DNA from: a virus
Taxonomy: Duplodnaviria > Caudoviricetes
Strand: one strand, 5' to 3'
Length of the DNA stretch: 64,000 nt
IMG/VR virus record: IMGVR_UViG_3300013121_000029
Span: 1 to 64,000 of that record
Under the pieces are notes generated by a model. It saw only the letters and a program-made list of their open reading frames with translations. It was not told the origin of the DNA and did no database searches. Position 1 is the stretch's first letter, and the number at the start of each line of letters is the position of its first letter. Below, piece by piece: positions 19,847 to 63,890 of the stretch. The position numbers were made by a program, and so were the translations under genes.

Positions 19847-20035
19847 ATGAGCAATTTGTCGAAACACGATAGAGAGTTAGGAGTTCAAGCAGCAGCAAAA
19901 ATATTTAAAGGAACAGGAATAGGGGCAGCTTTGTTTACACGAAATGCAGATGCTATTGCACAATATTTAGCAACTGGGGAACTACCACCTGCCCCTACTA
20001 ACCGAAAACCTGTTGTCGATGAAGACAAGAAATAA
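19847..20035 (+). CDS. hypothetical protein (62 aa)
   Basis: GAGGTG RBS. Confidence 0.6.
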   Translation: MSNLSKHDRELGVQAAAKIFKGTGIGAALFTRNADAIAQYLATGELPPAPTNRKPVVDEDKK

Positions 20036-20044
20036 TAAATAAAG

Positions 20045-20368
20045 AATCAGATGAAGGCAAGACGAAAGTAGGCAAGACGCGAGTTCGAACCTCGCCATCT
20101 CCACCAAGGGATTTTCGTAAAGCCACAGGAACTCAGGACGGACATATATCTATCCTAAACATTATGTAAGAATGTTGAGCTGTGGGGGAAAGTCTTTTAT
20201 GGGGATGAATTGGAATCGATTGGTTACGAGTACTTTAGCTGGATGATCGGTTGGGAACCTTCCGTAATAGAACAAAAACTGTAAATGACGCAAATGAAGC
20301 GTTTAGTCTAGCTGCCTAAAAGGTAAGCATGAGTTTTATTGGTTGAGCTCGGAAACAGAATCAACCAA
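20045..20368 (+). ncRNA. ssrA: circularly permuted (two-piece) tmRNA
   Basis: Acceptor piece ends GACGCGAGTTCGAACCTCGCCATCTCCACCA (20106); coding piece starts GGGGATG (20201), giving a 7-bp acceptor stem with G3:U70; tag ORF 20287-20319 DANEAFSLAA*; outer ends approximate. Confidence 0.92.
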
Positions 20369-20875
20369 TGCTTTTTCAATATATATCCAATATTTTGTAC
20401 CATCGGGTCTGGATCTTTTTCTTCGACGTTTGGCTTTTTCTGATATTTTCTGTCGTACTTCTTCCCGATTCATAACATTGTTGCACCCTGTCCTATTAGG
20501 AAACTTTTTTCCTTTAGTGTTTCCAGGTTTTCCTTTTCTTGCGTTTGAAATTTTTTGACGTTGCTCTATGGACATAGGTTTTCCCTTATTTAAAGCTGTA
20601 AACCCTTTTTTTCGGCCCATTTTTGTATTATAATACCGTGTTCGAAATTCTGTTGGTTTAATTAATGCAATTAATCTTCGTTCTTCACGTATAGCATCTT
20701 GTTTTGTATCATATATTCTTAATATACGTCGTTTAAAATCTTGTGGTCTAAACAACACTTCCCCTGTAAACCACCGTGAAGATGAAATATAACCATCAGA
20801 AAGTTGTCCACTATGAGAACCAATGTAAAACATTTTTCTTACACGATCGAACCAAATATACACGAAATGAATCAT
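20336..20875 (-). CDS. GIY-YIG homing endonuclease (Seg-like, NUMOD3-type tail)
   Basis: FVYIW...FYIGSH.G...DGY..S, E..LI, YYN, GKPMS.EQRQKIS; GGAG before ATG 20875. Confidence 0.85.
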   Translation of the reverse strand: MIHFVYIWFDRVRKMFYIGSHSGQLSDGYISSSRWFTGEVLFRPQDFKRRILRIYDTKQDAIREERRLIALIKPTEFRTRYYNTKMGRKKGFTALNKGKPMSIEQRQKISNARKGKPGNTKGKKFPNRTGCNNVMNREEVRQKISEKAKRRRKRSRPDGTKYWIYIEKALVDSVSELNQ

Positions 20876-60843: not shown

Positions 60844-61890
60844 TTATTCCTCATCAGAATCGTTTTGATTAAATCCTTGACGAATACCTTTAAGGCCCTT
60901 GTAAGGTACAGATAAAGTCTTCACCACACTTGTCTTATTTCTCATTGCTGGAATAAAATCAAATGCTCTTTCAGAGAAACCTGCTAATTGATACCAACCA
61001 TCAATTTCGCTTACAGGAGTGGAAGCATATGCATTCAAGTTAAATGCTACTTTAACAACATTTGATCCGAAAATCTTTGTTGCTTCACGTTTTGAACTTA
61101 ACTGATTCACCTGCATATCACTAAACAGGATCACAGTATCAGGTTCAAATCCTAATGCTGGTTTAAGATCTAAAGCAGCCTGTAAGTTTGTTCCACCACC
61201 ATATGAACGTGCTTCAATGGCTTCTACGTTAGCAAACATATTTGCCTTTGGATCGACGTTGATGTGTTCAGCACTGTTACTGAAAATCGTAACTTTCACA
61301 TTAGTTGCGTTTTTATTTGCACCAACTAATGCTGCAGAGAAAAGCGCTCCAGTTTGAAGTGGAGTACCTTCCATACTTCCTGATACATCAAGAATAATCC
61401 AAATATTGTTACCAATAGAAGGAATGTTAGTTAAACTTGTGTTACATGCATCACGAACAGCAGCACGTAATCTATCTTTATTAACATTCTTACCTTGTGC
61501 TCCATCGATTGCTGTTAAAGCATTAACGAAACGGAAAGGAAGTTGTTTTGACTTTTTAATTTGGTCTTCATCAACTAACTTACCCATTACCTGCTTGATA
61601 ACAGTATCAGGTACGTTTGCTTCAATGATGTTTCGGAGATTGCGAAGAAGTGCCATATATTGTACACTGTTAGATTCGATCAAATCAGTCCAAACTTCAG
61701 CATTTGTTTTGCGCTCGTTTGCTGGTAATTGACCATTAGCACTCAACACAGTTTCCCATGTTTTTGGGGTTGCTAATTCGTCTTTTATCAATTTAGCAAA
61801 GATTTCACCTTGTTCTGGTGTTTTACCTACAGGGTGAACAATGCGTAATACGTCACGAAGTTTAACTTGTTTTTTGCTGTGCTTTGCCAT
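60844..61890 (-). CDS. Ro60/TROVE protein, C-terminal fragment (TROVE end + VWA)
   Basis: VKLRDVL..VHP, TWET.LS, YMALLRNLRNI, QLPFRF, LDVSGSM, GGT, FSDMQ; AGGAG before ATG 61890. Confidence 0.9.
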   Translation of the reverse strand: MAKHSKKQVKLRDVLRIVHPVGKTPEQGEIFAKLIKDELATPKTWETVLSANGQLPANERKTNAEVWTDLIESNSVQYMALLRNLRNIIEANVPDTVIKQVMGKLVDEDQIKKSKQLPFRFVNALTAIDGAQGKNVNKDRLRAAVRDACNTSLTNIPSIGNNIWIILDVSGSMEGTPLQTGALFSAALVGANKNATNVKVTIFSNSAEHINVDPKANMFANVEAIEARSYGGGTNLQAALDLKPALGFEPDTVILFSDMQVNQLSSKREATKIFGSNVVKVAFNLNAYASTPVSEIDGWYQLAGFSERAFDFIPAMRNKTSVVKTLSVPYKGLKGIRQGFNQNDSDEE

Positions 61891-62476
61891 TTTCTTTCTC
61901 CTGTTTGTGTAGTAATTTATGACATTGTTTACATAATGTAAGTCCATTGTCAATATTAAATCTTTCATCCATATTTGTAGAGAACGGTTTAATGTGGTGA
62001 GCTTCTAGTTCACAATGTGTGATTCCGCACATCCTACAATAATATTGATCGCGTTGGAAAACTAATGTTCTCCAGGTTTTATATTGGTCTGATTGTCTAA
62101 GTAAAATGTTTTCATTACTTAATCCACCTTTCCAATTCCAATGAAGTTCTTTACTCTTTCCTGTATTTTTTAATCGATCATCCGTTCGTTTAGTTAATCC
62201 TTTATTCCAACTTGATTTGCCTTTTCGTGAAATAGAAAGCTTTTGCTTAGTTTCTTCTGAAACAGTTTTTCCTACCCATTTATGCCTATGAAGTCGGGCC
62301 CATGTATTTGCTCTTCCTTTTAAGGAATCTGATACTGTTCGTCTCGGAATTCCATATCGCTTCATCCAATTTAACACTGTTGCTCCTGAGCAATTAAATT
62401 TATCTGCAATTTGTTGTAGTGATAATTTTTGGTTGATGTATAACTCAATTAATAATTCTTGTTCGATTTTTTTCAT
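61862..62476 (-). CDS. HNH homing endonuclease (HTH + NUMOD3 + HNH) inserted in the Ro60 gene
   Basis: LSLQQIA HTH, SEETKQKLS, WNKG, HWNWKGG, RD.Y.C..CG...AHHIKP....NG.TLC..CH. Confidence 0.9.
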   Translation of the reverse strand: MKKIEQELLIELYINQKLSLQQIADKFNCSGATVLNWMKRYGIPRRTVSDSLKGRANTWARLHRHKWVGKTVSEETKQKLSISRKGKSSWNKGLTKRTDDRLKNTGKSKELHWNWKGGLSNENILLRQSDQYKTWRTLVFQRDQYYCRMCGITHCELEAHHIKPFSTNMDERFNIDNGLTLCKQCHKLLHKQEKENGKAQQKTS

Positions 62477-62506
62477 TTTAAATACTTCTAATATTAGAAG
62501 TATTTA

Positions 62507-63121
62507 TTAATTCCATTTAGCAAGAGAGTACTCATTGAATTTTTCGAAAGCATCTGCAACCCCACGACGAATTGCCATAGGTACAGCATTCTTTCCACCA
62601 AAAACAGATAATGCATATGCATATAAATCAGTGATTTGGTCAGCACGTTGAATTACGTCGCAAACAACACGACGCATATCATTATAGGTAAACTGTTCAG
62701 CTTTTGATTGAAAAGTTGCTATTTTAATATTTTCAGCATCGGTTAACTCACGACCATTTGCACTTTGTTTAATAGTAGTAATTTGATCAAGGAACAATTT
62801 ACGATTATCAGAAAGGGCCTTTGCAAATTCAACACAAAGAATGATAGGCATGGTACGAATGTTCATATTCGTACGTGCGTGAACGATTAAATTTGCTAAG
62901 AAGTCGAAATTTTTATTGGCAACAACAGAAGACAAAAGTTCACGCAAACGACGTAAACGATCGTTTGAACTTTCATAGAATTCATCTTTACCGTACAAAG
63001 TCATTGTAACAACTTCGTACAATTGTTGTTCAGCATTTTTAAGGAATTGTGGATTACCGTTGTAAGAATAAGCAACCTTATTCTGTTTTGCGGATTTGTT
63101 TGGCTTATTTAATTTAGACAT
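62507..63121 (-). CDS. Ro60/TROVE protein, N-terminal fragment
   Basis: FYES, AR...N.RT.P, IQRADQ, RRGVADAF.KFNEY.LAKWN; GAGGAG RBS. Confidence 0.88.
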   Translation of the reverse strand: MSKLNKPNKSAKQNKVAYSYNGNPQFLKNAEQQLYEVVTMTLYGKDEFYESSNDRLRRLRELLSSVVANKNFDFLANLIVHARTNMNIRTMPIILCVEFAKALSDNRKLFLDQITTIKQSANGRELTDAENIKIATFQSKAEQFTYNDMRRVVCDVIQRADQITDLYAYALSVFGGKNAVPMAIRRGVADAFEKFNEYSLAKWN

Positions 63122-63180: not shown

Positions 63181-63210
63181 GGATGTTACGAATACCATTA
63201 GAAATATTTT

Positions 63211-63339
63211 AAAGAGACAAGGGCTAAAAGAGAGATTTTCGTGCTCTACCAACTGAGCTATATCTCCAGATGGAGATAGCAGGACTCGAACCTACGGCCA
63301 CGTCATTAACAGTGAAGTAACTCTTTTATACGCAACTTT
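63211..63339 (-). ncRNA. YrlA-like Y RNA with permuted tRNA-like domain
   Basis: GTTGCGTA-TAAAAGAG-TTACTTC, CTGTTAA, T arm GTAGG-TTCGAGT-CCTGC, capped acceptor stem TATCTCC-ATCT-GGAGATA, TA, D arm GCTC-AGTTGGTA-GAGC, CTCTTTTA...CTTGTC; adjacent to Ro60. Confidence 0.9.
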
Positions 63340-63350
63340 AAAAAACTTTA

Positions 63351-63415
63351 TGATGAGTCAAAGTTAGAAAGAGTGTGTTTCACCAAAAGAAGTAACTCTT
63401 TCCTACGCAACATCA
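63351..63415 (-). ncRNA. minimal Y-RNA-like element
   Basis: TGATG-TTGCGTAG-GAAAGAGT-TACTTC...GTG-AAA-CAC-ACTCTTTC-TAACTTTGACT-CATCA. Confidence 0.8.
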
Positions 63416-63434
63416 AAAACTTTTACAAAAATTC

Positions 63435-63520
63435 AGGTGAGTTAAAGTCGTACAGAGGATATTGGCCCGAGGCCAGTCTTTGTTAAGGAAAAGAAGTATC
63501 TCTGTTACTACGCAACACCT
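63435..63520 (-). ncRNA. Y-RNA-like element with GC hairpin insert
   Basis: AGGTG-TTGCGTAG-TAACAGAG-ATACTTC...TGGCC-TCG-GGCCA...CTCTGTA-CGACTTTAACT-CACCT; TAAATA at ~63528-63533 just upstream. Confidence 0.8.
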
Positions 63521-63547
63521 AAAAACCTATTTATGATACGAAATTTC

Positions 63548-63832
63548 AGTCGAGTTCAATTTTGAATTGAGCAGTCACCGGACAGGAGGTTATTAGTCCT
63601 GTTATACGGCCAACATTTACTCTCAAATGTTTTAAGATGAGTGTTTCTGACACCAGCCAACTTAACGTAATTGATACGAATGTTTTAAAGATCTTTTCAA
63701 TTAATAGTTAATTTCATTTGTGATATTTCTAAACATTAACTCTATATCACACAATAAAACTATTTGGTCTTACCTATTAATCGTCCGATCCAGCCGTTTT
63801 AATATGAAGTATCTCACTTCAACGCAACGACT
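63548..63832 (-). ncRNA. long (~285 nt) Y-RNA-like element with multi-hairpin insert
   Basis: AGTCG-TTGCG-TTGAAGTGAG-ATACTTC ... CTCAATTCAA-AATTGAACT-CGACT; several internal inverted repeats; no long ORF. Confidence 0.7.
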
Positions 63833-63861
63833 TCATTTCGAATTCATTAATTTATATATCT

Positions 63862-63890
63862 ATTATATATGAGAGTTTATTAAAATTCAA
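63862..63890 (-). promoter_or_regulatory. sigma70-type promoter for the ncRNA array
   Basis: TTGAAT-N17-TATAAT on -. Confidence 0.7.

What the first reader, a model, noticed from the sequence alone, without database searches (positions are those of the whole stretch)
63211..63339. Circularly permuted tRNA mimic (Asn-like CUGUUAA loop) inside the Ro60-proximal Y RNA
Seen: the order is anticodon-like CTGTTAA, T arm (TTCGAGT loop), acceptor stem closed by a 4-nt loop with no free CCA end, U8A9, then D arm with TGG. Established: this T-acceptor-D permutation is the YrlA architecture. Inference: an unchargeable tRNA shape could act as a decoy for host anticodon nucleases or tRNA-sensing defences, or recruit tRNA-handling enzymes, alongside the two phage RNA ligases.
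Basis: partly seen in the sequence, partly recalled or inferred. Interest (0 to 1): 0.7.

Follow-up and report, generated by a model that had tools for sequence, protein, structure and literature searches.

The report
Phage Y RNA carrying whole permuted tRNA
Just upstream of a phage's Ro60 gene lies a small RNA of the known YrlA (Y RNA) type whose tRNA-like part is a complete tRNA-Asn look-alike, anticodon loop included, with its chain ends moved into the anticodon stem; published descriptions say YrlA has no anticodon loop.

Summary
On the minus strand, 63207-63343 is one stem-closed RNA. It has a conserved handle, then an anticodon-like hairpin (loop CUGUUAA), a 5-nt variable loop, a T arm, a 7-bp acceptor stem closed by AUCU, U8A9 and a D arm.

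Rfam YrlA matches only the T/acceptor/D core (37.2 bits, gathering score 69). A published-type mycobacteriophage YrlA (Bxz1) also scores only 32.5 bits.

New here: a covarying 2-bp closure (27-28:42-43) continues into the 3-bp hairpin (29-31:39-41). Together they make a normal 5-bp, 7-nt-loop anticodon arm broken between positions 28 and 29.
- All five pairs form in this exact register in 22 of 39 related units. Other loop lengths give 0-4 of 39.
- Rejoining the chain at 28/29 makes ARAGORN call a canonical tRNA in 25 of 26 units; the window gives tRNA-Asn(GUU).
- The loops keep U33, a purine at 37 and A38, while the triplet varies. U36 types (Lys, Asn, Ser-GCU, Thr) predominate.

Chen et al. 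2014 drew this hairpin as a variable ("V") arm. Wang et al. 2018 state that YrlA lacks an anticodon loop.

The function (decoy, sensor or tether) is untested. The scan has flagged similar phage YrlA-like tRNA mimics on other DNA, and this same stretch from an overlapping window.

The parts
63337..63343 (-). Stem 1, 5' strand (UUUUAAA); pairs with 63207-63213
   Evidence: Sequence; the pairing is in the RNAfold minimum-free-energy and centroid structures.
63328..63336 (-). Conserved 5' handle motif GUUGCGUAU (family consensus GUUGCGUAG); likely Ro60-contact motif, counterpart of YrlA GNCGAA(N)G
   Evidence: The motif recurs in the four units of the window and in relatives. The comparison with the YrlA motif rests on Chen 2014 and is inferred.
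63321..63327 (-). Stem 2, 5' strand (AAAAGAG); pairs with 63226-63232
   Evidence: 7 bp in the window. A different but complementary stem of at least 6 bp is found at this place in 27 of 36 relatives.
63316..63320 (-). Junction linker UUACU containing the conserved YUAY of YrlA
   Evidence: TAC is conserved in all relatives, but it was part of the search pattern. YUAY is described in Chen 2014.
63303..63315 (-). Distal anticodon arm: 29-31 UCA, 7-nt loop CUGUUAA (anticodon GUU, Asn type), 39-41 UGA
   Evidence: Register test, ARAGORN after rejoining the chain, covariation at all 3 pairs, loop statistics.
63301..63302 (-). Positions 42-43 (CG); pair with 27-28 at 63240-63241
   Evidence: 98.6% of cells paired, both pairs covary; specific to a one-nucleotide position 26.
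63296..63300 (-). Variable loop UGGCC (G46; C48 can pair with G15 as the Levitt pair)
   Evidence: Sequence; relatives have 4-5 nt, AGGUC-like.
63279..63295 (-). T arm GUAGG-UUCGAGU-CCUGC
   Evidence: Rfam YrlA alignment; 99.4% of cells paired in relatives.
63261..63278 (-). Acceptor stem, 7 bp (UAUCUCC / GGAGAUA), closed by loop AUCU (A at the discriminator position); no CCA
   Evidence: Sequence; all 7 pairs covary in relatives, 96.3% of cells paired.
63242..63260 (-). U8A9, D arm GCUC-AGUUGGUA-GAGC, A26
   Evidence: Rfam YrlA alignment; 97.9% of cells paired in relatives.
63240..63241 (-). Positions 27-28 (CG), proximal 2 bp of the anticodon stem; the chain leaves the tRNA body here
63233..63239 (-). 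Single-stranded linker AAAAUCU (AAAAU recurs in many relatives)
63226..63232 (-). Stem 2, 3' strand (CUCUUUU)
63214..63225 (-). 3' handle motif AGCCCUUGUCUC (family consensus CG-N-UUUUUCUC)
63207..63213 (-). Stem 1, 3' strand (UUUAAAA)
62507..63121 (-). Ro60 N-terminal piece (204 aa), starts 86 nt downstream of the RNA
   Evidence: ORF. tblastn: 42% identity to a viral-contig relative and 28% to the annotated 'Ro-like RNA binding protein' of Arthrobacter phage Atuin. No Pfam hit above cut-off.
60844..61968 (-). Ro60 C-terminal piece (TROVE + vWA), separated from the N piece by an HNH endonuclease ORF (61862-62476)
   Evidence: Pfam: TROVE 7.4e-21, VWA_2 2.1e-07; HNH_2 4.7e-09 and NUMOD3 for the insert.
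63862..63890 (-). Sigma-70-like promoter match upstream of the four-unit RNA array (TTGAAT-17-TATAAT)
   Evidence: This is a consensus match only. A second match (TTGACT-17-TATAAT, 11 of 12) at 63180-63152 lies between the RNA and Ro60.

Best explanation
Unit 1 (63207-63343, minus strand) is a YrlA-class Y RNA. It is the last of four handle-sharing small RNAs encoded directly upstream of a phage Ro60 (TROVE-vWA) gene.

Shown here:
- A two-stem handle with conserved motifs (GUUGCGUAU ... AGCCCUUGUCUC) encloses a complete tRNA body that is circularly permuted.
- The acceptor ends are joined by a 4-nt loop.
- The chain enters and leaves between positions 28 and 29 of the anticodon stem.
- A 2-bp closure plus a 3-bp hairpin therefore rebuild a 5-bp anticodon stem with a 7-nt loop, CUGUUAA, the loop of tRNA-Asn(GUU).
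- All the usual tertiary-contact nucleotides are present: U8, A14, G15/C48, G18G19, G46, U54U55C56, A58, G53-C61.

Inferred:
- Ro60 binds the handle, as in other Y RNAs.
- The hairpin stacks on the closure, because the 3' strand 39-43 is continuous while the handle is joined through 5- and 7-nt linkers. The RNP would then present a full L-shaped tRNA-Asn look-alike, anticodon loop included, to proteins that read tRNA shape and anticodon loops.
- The most likely role is to tether Ro60 to such a protein or to compete for it: a tRNA modification or repair enzyme, or an anticodon nuclease. This role is untested.
For: Identity
- Rfam YrlA matches the core at 37.2 bits, E 2.7e-06, and is the only hit in the 197.6-kb record.
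- The RNA is on the same strand as Ro60 and ends 86 nt upstream of it.
- A family search pattern that put no constraint on the anticodon region found 73 distinct units.
- 29 of 72 distinct units have a same-strand Ro60 hit within 4 kb downstream. Among units with at least 2.5 kb of downstream flank the figure is 16 of 29.
- The handle stems covary.

Complete anticodon arm
- All 5 pairs form in 22 of 39 units at loop length 7 with a one-nucleotide position 26. Other loop lengths give 0-4 of 39 and other offsets 0-8 of 39.
- After rejoining the chain at 28/29, ARAGORN calls canonical tRNAs in 25 of 26 units; in native order it of 26.
- On 36 model-aligned modules, 96.5% of cells pair, against 63% in shuffles and 38-46% in slid controls. 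Both anticodon-arm helices show compensatory changes.
- Among the 25 modules with 5 of 5 pairs, U33 is present in 22, a purine at 37 in 24 and A38 in 25. G36 is always followed by G37, as in real tRNAs.
- The CUGUUAA loop recurs on four different, covarying stems.
- The mimic's anticodon stem shares 4 of 5 base pairs with the phage's own tRNA-Asn, against 0-3 for the other 20 phage tRNAs.
Against: - The Rfam score is below the gathering cut-off and covers only model positions 24-84.
- There is no transcript evidence for unit 1. The one metatranscriptome contig covers only unit 4.
- About a third of related modules lack a clean arm, for example a GUCG tetraloop in L249 and poor pairing in phage Atuin. 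The arm is therefore not obligatory for the class.
- Stacking of the hairpin on the closure is inferred from connectivity, not shown. Chen et al. drew the same hairpin as a variable arm.
- The 15-row alignment A3 was selected for pairing. The unselected register test and the 36-row alignment address this.
- No binding, modification or cleavage data exist for this RNA.
Confidence: 0.8

Rival explanations
1. The hairpin 5' of the T arm is only the poorly constrained 'V' (variable) stem-loop already drawn for YrlA RNAs. Its likeness to an anticodon loop is a relic of descent from tRNA (the dimeric-tRNA origin model) and has no role; only the tRNA elbow matters.
For: - Chen 2014 labels this hairpin V and calls it less conserved.
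- Wang 2018 find conservation concentrated at the elbow and variable AS/AC/VL regions.
- About a third of modules lack the arm.
- The loop is the fastest-changing part in two closely related pairs.
Against: - Exact tRNA geometry (2+3 bp, 7-nt loop, one-nucleotide position 26, 4-5-nt variable loop) is kept across lineages whose Ro60 proteins are only 25-45% identical to the window's, and the stems covary.
- U33, R37 and A38 are retained while the triplet changes, and the G36-G37 coupling holds.
- A true variable arm would emerge 3' of positions 42-43. This hairpin lies 5' of them.
Confidence: 0.2
2. The RNA is processed at the acceptor loop (RNase P cut 5' of G1, trimming, CCA addition) into a two-piece molecule with a free CCA end, as reported for M. 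smegmatis YrlA. It might then even be charged, which would make it a split tRNA-Asn held on Ro60 rather than an inert mimic.
For: - It has a 7-bp acceptor stem, the determinant Chen et al. invoke for RNase P cleavage and in vivo CCA addition of M. smegmatis YrlA.
- An A sits at the discriminator position and G at +1.
- The anticodon arm is complete.
Against: - The closing loop is only 4 nt (3-4 nt in several relatives, one of them a UUCG tetraloop), which is a poor RNase P leader.
- No CCA is encoded, whereas most of the phage's 21 real tRNAs encode it.
- The phage already has a tRNA-Asn(GUU) gene.
- The break at 28/29 is tied into the Ro60 handle, and no bulge-helix-bulge splice motif is present.
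Confidence: 0.1
3. It is a chance arrangement, or the junction of two decayed tandem tRNA genes (3' part of one, 5' part of the next), with no function of its own.
For: My own model R1 also scores junctions of ordinary tandem tRNA genes at 25-50 bits. Pattern scans for T arm plus D arm mostly return tandem tRNAs.
Against: - The two acceptor strands are perfectly complementary (7 of 7), and all 7 pairs covary in 36 relatives. In tandem tRNA junctions they pair at 1-5 of 7.
- The module sits inside a covarying handle next to Ro60 in many unrelated contigs.
Confidence: 0.02

Closest known systems
YrlA (Y RNA-like A; Rfam RF02553; Chen et al. 2014, PMC4201824; structure of the S. Typhimurium tRNA-like domain, Wang et al. 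2018, 10.1101/312249)
   Same: - Encoded next to Ro60 and on the same strand.
- Stem-closed RNA with a 5' G-rich Ro motif and a conserved YUAY.
- T arm, closed acceptor stem and D arm in that order, with tRNA tertiary nucleotides.
- Many YrlAs have a hairpin 5' of the T arm, called V.
   Different: - Scores 37 bits against a gathering score of 69, and only over the core.
- The handle motifs differ (GUUGCGUAG ... CG-N-UUUUUCUC instead of GNCGAA(N)G).
- The solved S. Typhimurium YrlA has a continuous kinked stem and, in the authors' words, lacks the anticodon loop. Here the hairpin plus a 2-bp closure give a full 5-bp/7-nt anticodon arm in tRNA register.
- It is one of four tandem units sharing a handle.
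Mycobacteriophage and M. smegmatis YrlA (Chen et al. 2014); Bxz1 copy at AY129337 129979-130055
   Same: - Bxz1's module has the same broken arm: CUC-AUUGCAA-GAG, then AG pairing with CU after the D arm, then AGGUC.
- It also falls below the Rfam cut-off (32.5 bits) and scores 60.7 bits with my model.
- A primer published for M. smegmatis YrlA contains a CUUCUAA loop in the same layout.
   Different: - The handle sequence and the host are different.
- The arm was published as a variable (V) stem-loop, not as an anticodon arm.
- M. smegmatis YrlA is known to be cut by RNase P; nothing is known for this RNA.
Thermus phage phiLo Ro60 with Yrl1/Yrl2 (PMC12135203)
   Same: A phage Ro60 with Y-like RNAs encoded just upstream. 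Binding to the phage Ro60 and to host PNPase was shown in vitro.
   Different: By the passages I read, those RNAs were identified by a CGAA motif and a fold, and no tRNA-like module was described. There is no sequence relation to this handle that I tested.
Circularly permuted tRNA genes of Cyanidioschyzon merolae (from my own knowledge, Soma et al. 2007; not read here)
   Same: The 3' part of the tRNA is encoded upstream of the 5' part, and the acceptor ends are joined by a short intervening sequence.
   Different: Those genes are matured through a circular intermediate into normal, chargeable tRNAs, using a splicing endonuclease and a bulge-helix-bulge motif. Here the break lies in the anticodon stem inside a Ro60 handle, and no such motif is present.

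Membership tests
YrlA-type Y RNA (RF02553) | Encoded within about 4 kb of a Ro60/TROVE gene, on the same strand | tested here: met
   The RNA ends at 63207 and Ro60 starts at 63121, both on the minus strand. The C piece has a TROVE + vWA Pfam match.
YrlA-type Y RNA (RF02553) | tRNA-like domain in the order T arm, closed acceptor stem, D arm, with conserved tertiary nucleotides | tested here: met
   Rfam alignment to model positions 24-84; nucleotides checked in the sequence; covariation in relatives.
YrlA-type Y RNA (RF02553) | Score at or above Rfam's gathering threshold (69 bits) over the full model | tested here: not met
   37.2 bits, positions 24-84 of 114 only. The Bxz1 phage YrlA also reaches only 32.5 bits, so the cut-off excludes phage members of the published class.
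YrlA-type Y RNA (RF02553) | 5' GNCGAA(N)G motif proposed for Ro60 contact | tested here: inconclusive
   The window has GUUGCGUAU and the family consensus is GUUGCGUAG. It resembles the motif (GCGUAG against NCGAAG) but is not identical.
YrlA-type Y RNA (RF02553) | Conserved YUAY 5' of the V/T region | tested here: met
   UUAC at 63320-63317; described in Chen 2014.
YrlA-type Y RNA (RF02553) | Physically bound by Ro60/Rsr | not testable with these tools
   Needs immunoprecipitation or a gel-shift assay.
Canonical tRNA (tRNA-Asn) | Contiguous cloverleaf with free 5' and 3' ends and a CCA end | tested here: not met
   ARAGORN finds no tRNA here in native order. The acceptor stem is closed by AUCU and no CCA is encoded.
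Canonical tRNA (tRNA-Asn) | All four arms of canonical length, a 7-nt anticodon loop with U33 and purine 37, and the tertiary nucleotides | tested here: met
   After rejoining the chain at 28/29, ARAGORN calls tRNA-Asn(GUU), 76 nt including the added CCA.
Canonical tRNA (tRNA-Asn) | Aminoacylation and use in translation | not testable with these tools
   Needs biochemistry.
Permuted tRNA genes matured through a circular intermediate (C. merolae type) | Bulge-helix-bulge motif at the joined termini for the splicing endonuclease | tested here: not met
   The termini at 28/29 run through 5- and 7-nt linkers into a 7-bp stem 2 and the Ro60 handle. No 3-4-3 bulge-helix-bulge is visible in the sequence.

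The most novel reading that the evidence does not exclude
The 'V' hairpin of YrlA-type Y RNAs is a genuine anticodon-arm mimic, and its triplet is a fast-evolving specificity determinant. Phage and bacterial Ro60-Y RNA particles would then present isoacceptor-specific tRNA look-alikes, mostly Lys, Asn, Thr and Ser-GCU types, which are the kinds of tRNA cut by anticodon nucleases such as PrrC and PARIS AriB. The particles would act as decoys, cleavage sensors or repair platforms in the tRNA-centred arms race, here alongside the phage's RNA ligases and its own tRNA-Asn.
Probability: 0.17. Interest if true: 0.85.

Novelty: new variant of a known kind. Interest (0 to 1): 0.55.

Why it matters
YrlA RNAs are described as tRNA mimics that lack an anticodon loop, and their effector is still unknown. 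If the hairpin next to the T arm completes a true anticodon arm, the search for the partner shifts from proteins that read only the tRNA elbow to those that read anticodon loops: t6A and queuosine enzymes, TrmD, anticodon nucleases and repair ligases.

Three observations give a concrete, testable link between phage Ro60 particles and tRNA-targeting defences:
- the loop is biased to U36-A37-A38 types (18 of 25 modules);
- the loop changes completely between near-identical RNAs;
- the arm resembles the phage's own tRNA-Asn.

The work also shows that Rfam's YrlA cut-off misses phage members of the class.

Tried and rejected
- blastn of the RNA array against the phage collection found nothing.
- Two early pattern scans were too unspecific. 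T arm plus D arm returned mostly tandem tRNA genes. Handle motifs alone returned chance hits.
- The closest viral-contig Ro60 relative (L001) has a handle-type unit but no tRNA module and no Rfam hit.
- Picking the longest hairpin in the region before the T arm did not discriminate, because of G-U pairs and alternative folds. I replaced it with the fixed-register test.
- MAFFT mis-registered units with 4-nt variable loops (alignments A1, A2). I used a 15-row subset and then a model-based alignment instead.
- A published M. smegmatis YrlA primer used as an exact pattern found nothing in the genome collection, so I could not rejoin the chain of that validated RNA.
- A search of 201 genomes of the Nocardia genus found the RNA in only 4, too few for a within-genus variability profile.
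- Sequencing runs: DNA contigs from sludge metagenomes hold parts of the stretch. The one RNA run covers only 63576-63809 (unit 4) and says nothing about unit 1.
- Two Wolin-lab reviews were not held in the library, so an earlier anticodon-arm reading in those texts cannot be excluded.
- The alternative pairing of 42-43 with the conserved UU of UACUU (a contiguous 5-bp hairpin) was considered and rejected. It fails whenever 42-43 is CG, AA or similar, while the pairing with 27-28 always holds and covaries.

Full report
**What is there**

The window is the first 64 kb of a 197.6-kb uncultured virus record. DNA contigs from activated-sludge metagenomes hold parts of the stretch.

On the minus strand, 63207-63343 reads as one stem-closed RNA:
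- stem 1: UUUUAAA / UUUAAAA
- a conserved 5' motif, GUUGCGUAU
- stem 2: AAAAGAG / CUCUUUU
- a linker, UUACU
- a hairpin UCA-CUGUUAA-UGA, followed by CG
- a variable loop, UGGCC
- a T arm
- a 7-bp acceptor stem closed by AUCU
- U8A9, a D arm, A26, then CG
- a linker AAAAUCU, the 3' strand of stem 2, a 3' motif AGCCCUUGUCUC, and the 3' strand of stem 1

**Context**

The RNA ends 86 nt upstream of a Ro60 gene on the same strand. That gene is in two pieces. The N piece is 62507-63121. The C piece is 60844-61968 and carries TROVE and vWA domains. An HNH endonuclease ORF lies between them.

Three more units with the same handle motifs lie upstream, at about 63411, 63516 and 63826. A sigma-70-like promoter match precedes the array, and another lies between unit 1 and Ro60.

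The phage also encodes:
- 21 tRNAs, including its own tRNA-Asn(GUU);
- a permuted tmRNA;
- two PF09414 RNA ligases, one of them in the window;
- no RtcB.

**Family**

Rfam YrlA matches 63240-63302 at 37.2 bits. The gathering score is 69, and the match covers only model positions 24-84, that is the T arm, the closed acceptor stem and the D arm. It is the only match in the record.

The cut-off is not a fair membership test for phage copies. Mycobacteriophage Bxz1 belongs to a phage group in which Chen et al. 2014 reported YrlA, and its copy reaches only 32.5 bits.

Chen et al. define YrlA by four things: Ro60 linkage on the same strand, a 5' GNCGAA(N)G motif, a conserved YUAY, and the T/acceptor/D module. 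Linkage, YUAY (UUAC at 63320-63317) and the module are met. The 5' motif is present as a variant.

**Relatives**

I scanned with a pattern built from the handle and the T loop only (GTTGCGT..TACTTC..GGTTCGANTCC), with no constraint on what lies between. It found 5 viral and 77 metagenome stretches, giving 73 distinct units. It also found 8 stretches in bacterial genomes: Nocardia, and Pseudobdellovibrionaceae, Methylobacterium, Parachlamydiaceae and deltaproteobacterial MAGs.

A same-strand Ro60 hit lies within 4 kb downstream of 29 of 72 distinct units. Among units with at least 2.5 kb of downstream flank the figure is 16 of 29. This used one divergent tblastn query.

Stem 2 is present with different, complementary sequences (at least 6 bp) in 27 of 36 modules.

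**The anticodon arm**

This is the point on which the finding turns. In the window, the CG after A26 pairs with the CG that follows the hairpin. The hairpin's 3 bp continue directly from that closure on an unbroken 3' strand. Together they give a 5-bp stem, a 7-nt loop, a 5-nt variable loop and a one-nucleotide position 26. This is exact tRNA numbering, with the chain broken only between positions 28 and 29.

The tests:
1. Register. Among 39 units with a parsed closed acceptor stem and D arm, all five pairs form in 22 at loop length 7 with a one-nucleotide spacer. Other loop lengths give 0-4 and other spacers 0-8.
2. Rejoining the chain. Joining 1-28 to 29-73 and adding CCA makes ARAGORN call a canonical tRNA in 25 of 26 units. 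In native order it of 26. The window becomes tRNA-Asn(GUU).
3. Covariation, small set. On a 15-row alignment, 96.8% of cells pair, against 65.5% in shuffles and 32-48% in slid controls. These rows were selected for pairing.
4. Covariation, larger set. On 36 modules aligned by a covariance model and not selected for the arm, 96.5% of cells pair, against 63% and 38-46%. The hairpin is 88.8% paired and the closure 98.6%, and every one of their five pairs shows compensatory changes.
5. Loop composition. Among the 25 modules with 5 of 5 pairs, U33 is present in 22, a purine at 37 in 24 and A38 in all 25. G36 is always followed by G37 and U36 almost always by A37, the coupling seen in real tRNAs.
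6. Recurrence. CUGUUAA occurs on four different stems.

An alternative pairing of 42-43 with the invariant UU of UACUU fails wherever 42-43 is not AG or GG.

**How this compares with what is published**

Chen et al. [quoted passage not shown] They called it V and equated it with the variable arm. Wang et al. 2018 solved the S. Typhimurium domain, which has no such hairpin, and state that YrlA lacks the anticodon loop.

Bxz1's module has the same broken arm: CUC-AUUGCAA-GAG, AG pairing with CU, then AGGUC. A primer published for M. smegmatis YrlA contains a CUUCUAA loop in the same layout.

So the object belongs to a known class. What I did not find in the papers I could read is the reading of its hairpin as a complete anticodon arm in tRNA register. 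Two reviews were not available.

**Hints about function**

All of these are circumstantial.
- The triplets are diverse but biased. 18 of 25 have U36: UUU 4, GUU 4, GCU 4, UGU 2, CUU 2. UGU also occurs in further partial units.
- In two pairs of near-identical RNAs the loop is the part that changed. L266 and L322 differ at 4 of 66 body positions and 4 of 7 loop positions. Two Nocardia copies differ, by my count from the sequences printed, at about 5 of 125 body positions and 5 of 7 loop positions.
- The window's anticodon stem shares 4 of 5 pairs with the phage's own tRNA-Asn, against 0-3 for its other 20 tRNAs.
- M. smegmatis YrlA, which also has a 7-bp acceptor stem, is cut by RNase P and receives CCA in vivo. 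The window's stem is also 7 bp, but its closing loop is only 4 nt.

**Expression**

One metatranscriptome run yields a 235-nt contig covering 63576-63809, inside unit 4. Nothing covers unit 1. Contigs cannot show ends or strand.

**Verdict**

The YrlA reading is supported. The Asn-like loop is part of a conserved, complete anticodon arm rather than a chance resemblance. The decoy or recruitment function remains a hypothesis.

It is a new variant of a known kind: a phage YrlA-type Y RNA with a different handle, missed by Rfam's cut-off, that carries a whole permuted tRNA. The scan has flagged similar YrlA-like mimics beside phage Ro60 or Ro60-like genes on other DNA, and this same stretch from an overlapping window.

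Noticed in passing
window 20014-20410 (+): A circularly permuted (two-piece type) tmRNA gene in the phage. Rfam tmRNA_permuted scores 85.2 bits at 20046-20319. ARAGORN calls a permuted tmRNA with tag peptide DANEAFSLAA.
   Followed up: no
window 60844-63121 (-): The Ro60 gene is in two ORFs (N piece 62507-63121; C piece with TROVE + vWA 60844-61968). An HNH/NUMOD3 homing-endonuclease ORF (61862-62476) lies between them, and its 3' end overlaps the listed start of the C-piece ORF.
   Followed up: partly
window 63351-63890 (-): Three further units share the GUUGCGU...UACUUC handle. Unit 2 carries only a 3-bp hairpin with a 7-nt loop UUUUGGU (a UUG-type loop with G36-G37). Unit 4 carries a large insert of about 230 nt.
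   Followed up: partly
window 63576-63809: A 235-nt contig from a sludge metatranscriptome library covers this part of unit 4 with 3 mismatches and stops inside the unit. This is a weak hint that the array is expressed as stable RNA. DNA carry-over cannot be excluded.
   Followed up: partly
G000:C1:155430-155513 (-), outside the window: The phage's own tRNA-Asn(GUU) is unusual: 84 nt, a long variable region and no encoded CCA. Its anticodon arm (CGUGA-CUGUUAA-UCACG) differs from the mimic's (CGUCA-CUGUUAA-UGACG) only by one flipped base pair.
   Followed up: partly
G000:C1:120723-120797 (-), outside the window: ARAGORN calls a tRNA with anticodon CUA (amber-reading, labelled tRNA-Pyl) among the phage's 21 tRNAs. 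It may be a suppressor tRNA.
   Followed up: no
L266:3187-3264 vs L322:231-308; L352 vs L356 (Nocardia): Pairs of near-identical Y RNA modules whose anticodon-like loops differ almost completely (CUGUCAA vs UUAUGGA; CUUUCAC vs CUGCUCA). The loop looks like a hotspot of change or exchange.
   Followed up: partly
L303, L272, L321, L328 (metagenome loci): Some units have the handle, an in-register anticodon-like hairpin and a T arm, but then run straight into the next unit with no acceptor 5' strand or D arm. These may be half modules or split forms, and remain unexplained. L328 shares the window's anticodon arm exactly, but it is a contig of about 1x coverage.
   Followed up: no
L358 (Nocardia genome G001, two identical copies on contigs C1 and C2): A bacterial Ro60 locus with three tandem handle-sharing units, two of them with permuted tRNA modules. 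One has a CUGUUAA loop with a C-C mismatch in the hairpin. The RNA was found in only 4 of 201 genomes of that genus, so its distribution is patchy.
   Followed up: partly
many loci: A covariance model of the permuted tRNA also scores the junctions of ordinary tandem tRNA genes at 25-50 bits. Acceptor-strand complementarity is needed to tell real closed modules from such junctions.
   Followed up: yes
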